Positions 10,024 through 11,359 of a stretch of DNA of 14,939 nucleotides are shown one piece after another. A program made the position numbers and the translations under genes. Numbering within the stretch: position 1 is the first letter of the stretch; each line of letters starts with the position of its first letter. Source of the DNA: a virus. Taxonomy: Duplodnaviria; Heunggongvirae; Uroviricota; Caudoviricetes. The notes under the pieces were generated by a model that worked only from the letters and a program-made list of their open reading frames with translations, did no database searches and was not told the origin of the DNA. The stretch lies in the IMG/VR virus record IMGVR_UViG_2695420456_000009. One strand, written 5' to 3'.

Positions 10024-10302
10024 ATGGCGCAAAATTCCAGACTACACAATTCTGATAATTCAGCCGTCTTTGCCAGCAGGCACGGGCGGCGTTCTCATGC
10101 ATTCAAATCTGACTGGTTCCGGCACGCCCCATGCACTGAAGAACAGGCCGAATGGCTGATTCAGAACTACCGCAGACGTGGGTATGAGTTTAGGAAAGCC
10201 CTCAGCCTCGATTATCGTCACTGGATAATCTACGTCAGGCTGCCGTACTCCGAGCGCCCACCGCGTCCGTCCCGCACATTCCAGCAACGCATCTGGAGGT
10301 AA
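10024..10302 (+). CDS. hypothetical protein, 92 aa
   Basis: ATG with RBS GGAGAAAG; stop is 1 nt before the GTG start of the DUF968 gene, suggesting co-translation. Confidence 0.5.
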   Translation: MAQNSRLHNSDNSAVFASRHGRRSHAFKSDWFRHAPCTEEQAEWLIQNYRRRGYEFRKALSLDYRHWIIYVRLPYSERPPRPSRTFQQRIWR

Positions 10303-10303
10303 C

Positions 10304-11359
10304 GTGCGGGTATTACTTCGACCTGTTCCGGTACCGGAACTTGGGTTGGTGGTCCTTAAACCAGGCCGTGAATCCATGCAGGTATTCCATAACCCTCGAG
10401 TGCTTGTGGAGCCGGAACCGAAAAGCATGCGCGGTCTGCCGTCCGGCATCGTCCCTGCCGTTCGCCAGCCGCTAGCGGAGGATAAATCATTACTGCCGTT
10501 TTTCAGCAATGAGCGTGTGATTCGTGCTGTTGGTGGCGCTGGTGCACTGTCTGACTGGCTGTTGCGTCATGTCAAATCCTGCCAGTGGCCTCATGGTGAC
10601 TATCATCACAGTGAAACCGTTATTCACCGTTATGGTACCGGCGCAATGGTGTTGTGCTGGCACTGCGACAACCAGCTGCGTGACCAGACATCCGAATCAC
10701 TCGAGCAACTTGCTCATCAAAACCTGTCAGCATGGATGATTGACGTCATCGGTCACGCAATAAGCGGTACGCAGGAGCGTGAATTATCTCTGGCTGAATT
10801 ATCCTGGTGGGCGGTCCGCAATCAGGTGGCGGACGCGCTACCGGAAGCGGTATTACGTCGTTCGCTGGGGTTGCGTGCGGAAAAAATCCGCTCAATGTAC
10901 CGTGAAAGCGACATCGTACCGGGAGAGCAGACCGCCACCATCATACTGAAGCAGCGCACAAAAAATCTTGCGCCGCTGCCTCACGCCCACCAGCAAAACC
11001 CGCCACAGGAAAAGACGGTGGTCAGCATTGCCGTTGATCCGGAGTCACCGGCTCAGTATCTCCAGCGCCAGAAACCACAACGGGAAGAGATGCCTGTATA
11101 CACGCGCTGGGTAAAAACGCAGAAATGCATGACGTGCGGTAATCAGGCAGATGATCCGCATCACATCATTGGTCATGGACTGGGAGGGATGGGAACAAAG
11201 GCTGATGATTTGTTTGTTATTCCGCTGTGCCGTAAATGTCATAACGAACTGCACGCTGGGGTAAAAGATTTTGAAGAAAAACACGGCAGCCAGCTGTTGT
11301 TGCTGATTCGTTTTTTAATGCACGCGAGAAATTCGGGTGTCCTGAAGTGGAAAGCATGA
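10304..11359 (+). CDS. ydfU: DUF968/YdfU-like protein with C-terminal HNH-type zinc-finger nuclease motif (351 aa)
   Basis: GTG start with GGAGG RBS; C-terminus CMTCGNQADDPHHIIGHGLGG...LCRKCHNELH carries a C-x2-C...HH...C-x2-C-H-x3-H pattern; size and position match Qin YdfU. Confidence 0.75.
   Translation: MRVLLRPVPVPELGLVVLKPGRESMQVFHNPRVLVEPEPKSMRGLPSGIVPAVRQPLAEDKSLLPFFSNERVIRAVGGAGALSDWLLRHVKSCQWPHGDYHHSETVIHRYGTGAMVLCWHCDNQLRDQTSESLEQLAHQNLSAWMIDVIGHAISGTQERELSLAELSWWAVRNQVADALPEAVLRRSLGLRAEKIRSMYRESDIVPGEQTATIILKQRTKNLAPLPHAHQQNPPQEKTVVSIAVDPESPAQYLQRQKPQREEMPVYTRWVKTQKCMTCGNQADDPHHIIGHGLGGMGTKADDLFVIPLCRKCHNELHAGVKDFEEKHGSQLLLLIRFLMHARNSGVLKWKA

What the first reader, a model, noticed from the sequence alone, without database searches (positions are those of the whole stretch)
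10024..11359. DUF968 protein with an HNH-type nuclease motif, translationally coupled to a 92-aa ORF
The YdfU-like protein ends in a clear HNH zinc-finger nuclease motif, and the 92-aa ORF upstream stops 1 nt before its GGAGG-GTG start. An HNH nuclease paired with a small partner in the variable nin-like region, rather than beside terminase, could act in replication or recombination, or as a nuclease-based exclusion function. DUF968 proteins are uncharacterised as far as I know.
Basis: partly seen in the sequence, partly recalled or inferred. Interest (0 to 1): 0.45.

Follow-up and report, generated by a model that had tools for sequence, protein, structure and literature searches.

The report
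Prophage nin-region HNH nuclease with small upstream gene
This is the ordinary ydfU-type (DUF968) HNH nuclease gene of an E. coli lambdoid prophage, already classed in the literature as a His-Me finger nuclease; the small gene in front of it is real, belongs to an unnamed family, and usually sits just before whichever recombination nuclease a given enteric phage carries.

Summary
The 92-aa ORF (10024-10302) stops 1 nt before the GGAGG-GTG start of a 351-aa DUF968 protein (10304-11359) that carries a complete HNH/zinc-finger motif.

The small ORF is a real gene (core dN/dS 0.12). It belongs to PHROG 1212, has no Pfam family, and was found only in Enterobacterales phages and prophages. In about 180 loci it is followed by DUF968, NinG, YbcO, another HNH, RusA or a DnaQ-like exonuclease, with its last two codons serving as the nuclease gene's ribosome-binding site. 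Fifty distant DUF968 loci lack it, and closely related small proteins pair with different nucleases. It is therefore not a dedicated DUF968 subunit. Tight coupling runs along the whole operon. Nothing supports a defence role.

The parts
10024..10302 (+). 92-aa small ORF, a member of PHROG 1212 (no Pfam family). Codons 1-26 are an Escherichia-specific, weakly constrained and predicted-disordered extension. Codons 27-92 (10102-10299) are the conserved 66-aa core, predicted beta-alpha-beta-beta plus a basic C-terminal tail.
   Evidence: phrog_1212, E 1.5e-36, residues 27-92; dN/dS 0.12 core, 0.64 extension. A GGAG lies 8 nt upstream of the ATG.
10291..10306 (+). Coupling junction TGG AGG TAA c GTG. 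The last two codons of the small ORF (W91 R92) form the Shine-Dalgarno sequence of the nuclease gene, with a 1-nt gap between stop and start.
   Evidence: The same layout (TGG GGG/AGG, stop, 1-2 nt, ATG/GTG) is seen before NinG, YbcO, RusA and N15 gene 41.
10304..11359 (+). 351-aa YdfU-type DUF968 protein (GTG start), the predicted His-Me finger (HNH) endonuclease.
   Evidence: AlphaFold2 model has mean pLDDT 88.8. It is 80% identical to K-12 YdfU.
10304..10687 (+). N-terminal domain, residues 1-128 (PHROG 11007). It has a beta-hairpin plus helix (105-125) and a putative four-ligand zinc site: C93, H101/H102, C118 and C121. C93, C118, W119 and D122 are invariant or nearly so in the family.
   Evidence: No significant match in Pfam or PDB sequences. 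Not significantly similar to the C-terminal HNH domain (hhalign E 0.05-0.2).
10688..11014 (+). Helical middle region (residues about 129-226) followed by a low-confidence linker (227-237).
11099..11293 (+). C-terminal HNH beta-beta-alpha-metal domain, residues 266-330: C275/C278, H286/H287, D302, C309/C312, H313, H317.
11360..11725 (+). RusA Holliday-junction resolvase. Its start codon abuts the YdfU stop codon.
11722..12411 (+). Antiterminator Q, overlapping rusA by 4 nt (ATGA). It marks the end of the nin-like region.
9694..9954 (+). rem, the upstream neighbour in Qin-type prophages. A 69-nt gap separates it from the small ORF, with no terminator-like site in between.

Best explanation
The 351-aa protein is the YdfU-type recombination nuclease of a lambdoid prophage. 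It occupies the slot just upstream of rusA and Q that lambda fills with NinG (Rap) and DLP12 with YbcO. It would be transcribed with the early-right (pR) operon during lytic growth.

Its C-terminal His-Me finger is predicted to be held by a Cys4-type zinc site (C275, C278, C309, C312), with H287 as the likely general base and H313/H317 as metal ligands. I infer that it nicks or cuts DNA at recombination or replication intermediates (D-loops, forks, junctions), probably RecA-associated, as its closest characterised relatives do. The N-terminal zinc domain and the helical middle region would supply substrate or partner recognition.

The 92-aa ORF encodes a small, conserved protein with a basic tail, from a family restricted to enteric phages. 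That family lies in the same recombination cluster: Orf-like mediator or rem, then the small gene, then the nuclease. Its last two codons are the ribosome-binding site of the nuclease gene, so the two are translated together. I infer it is a general accessory of this recombination module, such as a DNA- or partner-binding factor, and not a dedicated DUF968 subunit.

Shown here: gene structures, family membership, motif integrity, fold, synteny, coupling and purifying selection. Inferred: nuclease activity, substrate, RecA dependence and any physical interaction between the two proteins.
For: - Context: P - DUF1627 - paa - hokD - rem - small ORF - YdfU - RusA - Q - tRNAs.
- Family and motif: Pfam DUF968 and HNHc_6, PHROG 96, and a complete, conserved HNH/zinc motif.
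- Characterised relative: the HNH segment is 39% identical (E 2e-8) to PhiNM1 Gp16. The Gp16 residues needed for its growth-inhibition phenotype (C148, C181, H184; partly H185, H189) align with YdfU C278, C309, C312, H313 and H317.
- Slot equivalence: relatives of the small gene are followed by YbcO in phiES15 and mEp237, NinG in Gifsy-2 and GF-2, and DUF968 in Klebsiella phi9.1, always before RusA and/or Q.
- Literature: PMC5714182 proposes a recombination or repair role for His-Me group 7 from the same neighbours.
- Small ORF: 595 clusters, Enterobacterales only; dN/dS 0.12; core pLDDT above 90.
- Census of about 180 loci: the downstream gene is DUF968 in 79, NinG in 65, YbcO in 18, RusA in 4 and another HNH in 1, plus a DnaQ-like exonuclease in N15. 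All have the Shine-Dalgarno sequence embedded in the small ORF's last codons.
Against: - No biochemical or genetic data exist for YdfU itself, and none could be produced here.
- Similarity to Ref and Gp16 is confined to the roughly 60-80-residue HNH core. The Pfam RecA_dep_nuc model is not matched by this protein; a Klebsiella homologue scores only E 0.007, below the cut-off.
- YdfU lacks the NinB/Orf-like domain of Gp16 and of the Gram-positive DUF968 proteins, so substrate targeting may differ.
- The canonical Asn of HNH is replaced by D302, as in YbcO.
- The census is biased. The loci came from two query lineages, and many are near-identical prophages (105 non-redundant combinations).
Confidence: 0.6

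Rival explanations
1. The small protein and the nuclease form a dedicated two-component unit, with the 92-aa protein as an obligatory subunit, specificity factor or inhibitor/immunity protein of the DUF968 nuclease.
For: The 1-nt stop-start gap with the Shine-Dalgarno sequence inside the small ORF is conserved in 79 of 79 Qin-type loci. The small ORF is under purifying selection. The Escherichia lineage that carries the 26-aa extension was seen with DUF968 or with disrupted or insertion-bearing versions of that locus. Expression of the HNH relative Gp16 inhibits host growth (PMC12817073), so an inhibitor would make sense.
Against: None of 50 loci from two distant DUF968 subfamilies has a detectable homologue. 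Their upstream genes are methyltransferases, antirepressors and others, often also overlapping by 4 nt. The same small-protein family precedes NinG, YbcO, RusA, another HNH and a DnaQ-like exonuclease. Small proteins 92% identical to each other pair with YbcO in one locus and NinG in another. Coupling runs along the whole operon, and DLP12 NinE, an unrelated protein, plays the same positional role before ybcO.
Confidence: 0.12
2. The nuclease is a prophage-encoded defence or superinfection-exclusion function that cuts incoming phage DNA, or an abortive-infection toxin.
Against: Neither protein hits PADLOC. The gene sits in the lytic early-right operon between replication gene P and Q, chained to rusA, with no sensor, ATPase or methylase partner. 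The slot is interchangeable with NinG and YbcO recombination nucleases. Its high prevalence follows from the abundance of lambdoid prophages.
Confidence: 0.08
3. It is a terminase-associated packaging HNH (as in HK97 gp74) or a mobile homing endonuclease.
Against: It lies about 4.5 kb upstream of the terminase genes in the matching record, separated from them by rusA, Q, tRNAs and an IS element. It belongs to different Pfam and PHROG families from the packaging HNH proteins. Synteny is stable and orthologues are full length, with no intron, intein or NUMOD-type domains. A true homing HNH seen in the Enterobacter phage (HNH_3 plus NUMOD4) looks quite different.
Confidence: 0.03

Closest known systems
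E. coli K-12 Qin prophage YdfU (b1560), Pfam DUF968 (PF06147), His-Me finger group 7 of Jablonska et al. 2017
   Same: 80% identical over the full length, with the same three-part architecture. The neighbours match (rem upstream, Q downstream), and the same 92-aa ORF lies in front, intact but unannotated in K-12.
   Different: Here rusA lies between ydfU and Q, whereas in Qin ydfU directly precedes ydfT/quuQ. In K-12 the second zinc pair reads C-R-K-H instead of C-R-K-C.
DLP12 YbcO (DUF1364/PF07102, PDB 3g27)
   Different: YbcO is only the 96-aa HNH core. It lacks the roughly 260-residue N-terminal zinc domain and helical region. In DLP12 it is preceded by NinE, which is unrelated to the small ORF.
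Phage P1 Ref, RecA-dependent HNH endonuclease (PDB 3plw; PMC4330346, PMC3973344)
   Different: Ref has an unstructured basic N-terminus, not a folded zinc domain. This protein does not match the Pfam RecA_dep_nuc model. RecA dependence is untested for YdfU.
Staphylococcus phage PhiNM1 Gp16 (Pfam HNHc_6; NAR 2026, PMC12817073)
   Same: Homologous HNH core: 39% identity over 59 residues, E 2e-8. The zinc and catalytic residues tested by mutagenesis are conserved. Gp16 also passes the DUF968 cut-off. It is a phage early-region gene near ssb and rusA.
   Different: Gp16's N-terminal domain is NinB/Orf-like. YdfU's N-terminal part shows no such similarity. The host and gene order also differ.
Lambda NinG (Rap) structure-specific endonuclease (PF05766)
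   Same: Positional and probably functional analogue. It is a His-Me finger nuclease of the nin region, and in Gifsy-1/-2, GF-2 and many prophages it is preceded by a homologue of the same small ORF with the same coupled junction.
   Different: It is a different Pfam family with no significant sequence match to YdfU outside the generic HNH motif.

Membership tests
Pfam DUF968 (PF06147) / YdfU family | Match to the family HMM above the gathering score | tested here: met
   214.2 bits against a cut-off of 27.8, E 1.6e-63, residues 160-343. Also a full-length PHROG 96 match.
His-Me finger (HNH) nuclease superfamily | Beta-beta-alpha-metal fold with the catalytic His at the end of strand 1 and a metal-ligand His/Asn in the helix | tested here: met
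His-Me finger (HNH) nuclease superfamily | Zinc-finger Cys/His pairs flanking the motif (CxxC ... CxxC/H) are conserved | tested here: met
   C275/C278 and C309/C312 are present. C275 is invariant or nearly so in the alignments. Most members keep C309 and have C or H at position 312.
His-Me finger (HNH) nuclease superfamily | Metal-dependent DNA cleavage activity | not testable with these tools
   Needs purified protein. There is only indirect support from the Gp16 and Ref biochemistry in the literature.
RecA-dependent nucleases (P1 Ref, PF16786) | Match to the RecA_dep_nuc HMM above its cut-off | tested here: not met
   The window protein gave no hit at E up to 0.1. A Klebsiella homologue scored 17.0 bits against a cut-off of 26.9. 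The resemblance is structural only.
RecA-dependent nucleases (P1 Ref, PF16786) | Cleavage requires or is stimulated by RecA filaments | not testable with these tools
Orf/NinB-HNH fusion proteins (Curtis et al. 2014; HNHc_6, PF16784) | N-terminal NinB/Orf-like (RAGNYA) domain joined to the HNH domain | tested here: not met
PHROG 1212 (small ORF family) | Match to the family profile over its full length | tested here: met
   E 1.5e-36, residues 27-92 against profile positions 1-66 of 66. W31, A42, Y49, D63, L73, P74 and W91 are invariant in both alignments.
NinE (PF05322) / NinF (PF05810) small nin proteins | Sequence similarity to the family | tested here: not met
   No Pfam hit at E up to 0.1. 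DLP12 NinE against the small-ORF profile gave no alignment (hmmsearch score below 0, hhalign probability 0.06%). In the Erwinia and Enterobacter phages NinF is a separate gene.
Known anti-phage defence systems (PADLOC-DB 2.0) | Match of either protein to a defence-system model | tested here: not met
   No families for either protein at E up to 0.01.
Toxin-antitoxin-like nuclease/inhibitor pair | Strict co-occurrence of the two genes across the family | tested here: not met
   None of 50 distant DUF968 loci carries the small ORF. The small ORF pairs with at least five other nuclease types.

The most novel reading that the evidence does not exclude
The PHROG 1212 small protein is a previously unrecognised general cofactor or regulator of phage junction-processing nucleases. 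It has no Pfam family and is unannotated even in E. coli K-12. In enteric lambdoid and N15-like phages it is co-translated with whichever nuclease occupies the slot (DUF968, NinG/Rap, YbcO, RusA or a DnaQ-like exonuclease). It might, for example, recruit the nuclease to branched DNA, RecA or SSB, or restrain it until substrate is present.
Probability: 0.15. Interest if true: 0.5.

Novelty: already known. Interest (0 to 1): 0.22.

Why it matters
The main claim adds nothing new. YdfU/DUF968 was already filed as a His-Me finger nuclease with RusA and Q as neighbours, and related HNH proteins (P1 Ref, PhiNM1 Gp16) have been characterised as RecA-dependent nucleases.

Two modest results come out of this work:
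1. The enterobacterial YdfU type differs from the Gram-positive 'Orf-HNH' DUF968 proteins. It has a conserved N-terminal zinc domain of unknown function in place of an Orf-like domain.
2. A small, well-conserved gene family with no Pfam family, missing from the K-12 annotation, marks the 5' edge of the interchangeable nuclease slot of enteric lambdoid phages and supplies that slot's ribosome-binding site.

If the small protein proved to be a shared nuclease cofactor, it would help explain how lambdoid phages swap unrelated junction nucleases without losing regulation. Otherwise it is a useful landmark for annotation and for mapping mosaic boundaries.

Tried and rejected
- **N-terminal domain as a second, degenerate HNH domain.** I suspected this from the pattern C93...H101-H102...C118-x2-C121-D-N. 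hhalign of the N-terminal region against the C-terminal domain gave E 0.05-0.2 and probability of 1% or less. In the model the His pair lies before the hairpin, not at the end of strand 1. I kept it only as 'putative zinc site'.
- **Small ORF as NinE or NinF.** No similarity.
- **Domain fusions of the YdfU N-terminus to tail-fibre, tail-tip or portal domains in the representative library.** I judged these to be assembly chimeras, not informative architectures.
- **The search for related loci with the 10-sequence small-ORF alignment.** It failed because no stretch was conserved enough. A 5-sequence alignment worked.
- **Literature search for 'YbcO'.** It returned only superconductor papers.
- **NCBIfam.** No model for either protein.

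Full report
**What is there**

The window is the early-right (nin-like) region of an EHEC lambdoid prophage of the PPompW type. The 3.3 kb around the finding is 99.9% identical to E. coli O145 and O157 chromosomes and to the GenBank 'PPompW' phage records. At least part of it matches in 4776 of 5426 complete E. coli genomes.

Gene order, from Pfam and the deposited annotations, is: cI-like repressor, Cro, YdaT-like, O-like, P, DUF1627, paa, hokD, rem, the 92-aa ORF, DUF968, RusA, Q, three tRNAs.

The small ORF ends with TGG AGG TAA. The GGAGG in its last two codons is the Shine-Dalgarno sequence of the DUF968 gene, whose GTG start follows after one base. Distant homologues begin at the same M-R-x-L-L, which supports the GTG start.

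**The nuclease**

- Pfam places residues 160-343 in DUF968 (E 1.6e-63) and 266-327 in HNHc_6. PHROG 96, annotated 'HNH endonuclease', covers the full length.
- The protein is 80% identical to K-12 Qin YdfU.
- An exhaustive HMMER search found 2149 representative relatives.
- An alignment of 30-37 full-length members at 25-50% identity shows the motif C275-x2-C278 ... H286-H287 ... D302 ... P307-L-C309-x2-C/H312-H313-x3-H317 is conserved. The window protein has every position.
- The AlphaFold2 model is confident (mean pLDDT 88.8) and has three parts:
  1. An N-terminal domain (residues 1-128) with a hairpin plus helix, and a likely zinc site formed by C93, H101/102, C118 and C121.
  2. A helical middle region (about 131-219), followed by a disordered linker (227-237).
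  3. A C-terminal beta-beta-alpha domain (284-318).
- Lambda Orf is not among the hits listed, and hhalign finds no relation to the Orf-like DUF1367 family. The enterobacterial YdfU type therefore does not share the 'Orf-like domain plus HNH' layout described for Gram-positive DUF968 proteins.
- I could not show that the N-terminal domain is a second HNH domain. It has no relatives in Pfam or among PDB sequences.

**What was already known**

- Curtis et al. 2014 (PMC4118853) noted the zinc-finger HNH motif of DUF968 and its fusions to recombination proteins.
- Jablonska et al. 2017 (PMC5714182) put DUF968 together with DUF1364/YbcO in His-Me finger group 7. They named YdfU, listed RusA and Q as neighbours, and proposed a recombination or repair role like that of NinG.
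- I checked that Gp16 is a full-length HNHc_6 protein that also passes the DUF968 cut-off. Its HNH core is 39% identical to YdfU residues 272-327 (E 2e-8). The residues mutated in that study align with YdfU C278, C309, C312, H313 and H317.
- The statement that DUF968 proteins are uncharacterised is thus out of date for the wider family. YdfU itself remains untested.

**The small ORF**

- It is a real gene. Across 42 distinct nucleotide versions the conserved core (codons 27-92) has dN/dS 0.12. The other two reading frames give about 1.0 and 2.4. No copy has an internal stop.
- The first 26 codons are an Escherichia-specific extension. It is weakly constrained (0.64) and predicted disordered.
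- The core matches PHROG 1212 end to end and has no Pfam, NCBIfam or PADLOC match.
- A profile search found 595 clusters, all named 'hypothetical'. Every organism named among the listed hits belongs to the Enterobacterales.
- The model of the core (pLDDT above 90) is beta-alpha-beta-beta followed by a basic tail with a short helix.
- K-12 Qin has an intact copy that is not annotated.

**Is it a partner of DUF968?**

Annotated phages show the small gene directly in front of different nucleases:

| Phage | Gene order |
|---|---|
| phiES15 | YbcN - small - YbcO - RusA - Q |
| mEp237 | DUF1367 (annotated NinB/Orf) - small - YbcO - RusA - YlcG - Q |
| Gifsy-2 | DUF1367 - small - NinG - Q |
| GF-2 | small - NinG |
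| Klebsiella phi9.1 | small - DUF968 - Q |
| N15 | Q - small (Orf QD1) - gene 41 (RNase_T exonuclease plus Lar) |

Pfam confirmed these identities.

In the Erwinia and Enterobacter phages other genes lie between the small gene and NinG: a Dcm methylase or NinX, then NinF.

In about 180 loci fetched from viral and genome collections, the next gene was as follows:
- DUF968 in 79 loci
- NinG in 65
- YbcO in 18
- RusA in 4
- another HNH in 1
- something else in about a dozen, including unknown proteins, an NleB effector insertion, and truncated or contig-end copies of the DUF968 locus

The junction is the same everywhere: TGG GGG or TGG AGG, stop, 1-2 nt, then ATG or GTG.

Three results argue against a dedicated pairing:
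1. Two distant DUF968 subfamilies (50 loci) have no detectable small-ORF homologue. They are instead preceded, often with a 4-nt overlap, by methyltransferases, antirepressors and other genes.
2. Small proteins 92% identical to each other occur with YbcO in one locus and NinG in another. The lineages that accompany NinG, YbcO and RusA are intermixed.
3. Tight coupling is a property of the whole operon (gaps of +1, 0 and -4 nt from the small ORF to Q). In DLP12 the unrelated NinE plays the same positional role before ybcO.

In the non-Qin lineage the upstream neighbour is almost always the Orf-like DUF1367 gene. The small gene is therefore as firmly tied to the mediator gene as to the nuclease slot.

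My reading is that it belongs to the nin recombination cluster and marks the 5' boundary of an exchangeable nuclease cassette. A general accessory role is possible but unproven. The census is biased towards two lineages and contains many near-identical prophages (105 non-redundant combinations), so the counts describe the sample and are not frequencies.

**Mechanism and rivals**

The best-supported explanation (about 0.6) is a lytic-cycle recombination or replication-intermediate nuclease, analogous to Rap and YbcO, that works ahead of RusA. Its HNH chemistry is like that of Ref and Gp16, and it is co-translated with the small protein.

| Rival | Confidence | Basis |
|---|---|---|
| Dedicated small-partner or inhibitor pair | about 0.12 | See the three results above |
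| Defence or exclusion | about 0.08 | No PADLOC hit; lytic-operon position |
| Packaging or homing HNH | about 0.03 | Wrong position, family and architecture |

There is no terminator-like site between rem and Q apart from weak internal matches. A strong terminator-like hairpin follows hokD at 9545-9562, with a promoter-like site before rem.

**Verdict**

The core interpretation (an HNH nuclease in the nin region, probably acting in recombination) is right but already published. The 'small partner' idea is only partly right. Interest is low, apart from the modest and apparently undescribed small-gene family.

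Noticed in passing
L003 4307-4585 (minus strand), i.e. NC_000913.3 about 1644306-1644584: E. coli K-12 MG1655 has an intact 92-aa homologue of the small ORF (77% identical) in the unannotated gap between rem and ydfU in the Qin prophage. It looks like a missed gene in the reference annotation.
   Followed up: partly
window 9545-9562 and 9585-9614: A strong intrinsic-terminator-like hairpin (AACCCGC-TTCG-GCGGGTT followed by a T-run) lies just after hokD. It is followed by a promoter-like site upstream of rem. This suggests that rem - small ORF - ydfU - rusA - Q could also be transcribed as its own unit.
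   Followed up: no
window 10304-10687 (YdfU residues 1-128): Conserved N-terminal domain with invariant C93-Q94 and C118-W119 and near-invariant D122 (family consensus C-W-H-H-D-N, probably a zinc site). It has no detectable relatives in Pfam or PDB. It is also catalogued as a stand-alone family, PHROG 11007.
   Followed up: partly
P0299, P0300, P0267, P0247, P0352 (representative library): Proteins that join the YdfU N-terminus to tail-fibre, tail-tip (gpJ) or portal domains. These are almost certainly assembly or gene-calling chimeras from prophage-rich metagenomes, not real architectures.
   Followed up: partly
L005 2534-2761 (phage N15) and L008 2492-2692 (PY54): The telomere phages N15 and PY54 carry homologues of the small ORF outside a lambda-like nin region. 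In N15 it is Orf QD1, unannotated in the RefSeq record, and is coupled to gene 41 (DnaQ-like exonuclease fused to Lar). In PY54 it follows an RdgC-like gene. phiKO2 also gave a tblastn match, but I did not examine its context.
   Followed up: partly
window 12607-12847: Three tRNA genes, Met(CAT), Lys(TTT) and Arg(TCT), lie directly downstream of Q. PGAP calls the first tRNA-Ile and does not annotate the second in the matching chromosome.
   Followed up: no
window 8227-8985 and L138 3325-4221: Virulence cargo genes are inserted in this region. The paa adhesin lies upstream of hokD in the window. In a related prophage an NleB/SseK-family effector gene sits directly after the small ORF, where ydfU lies in the window.
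   Followed up: no
L087 1544-1969, L090 and L092: A 141-aa protein of unknown function (PHROG 10082) occupies the nuclease slot after the small ORF in some prophages. It starts with the same M-A-K codons as NinG, which suggests the mosaic breakpoint lies just inside the start of the downstream gene.
   Followed up: partly
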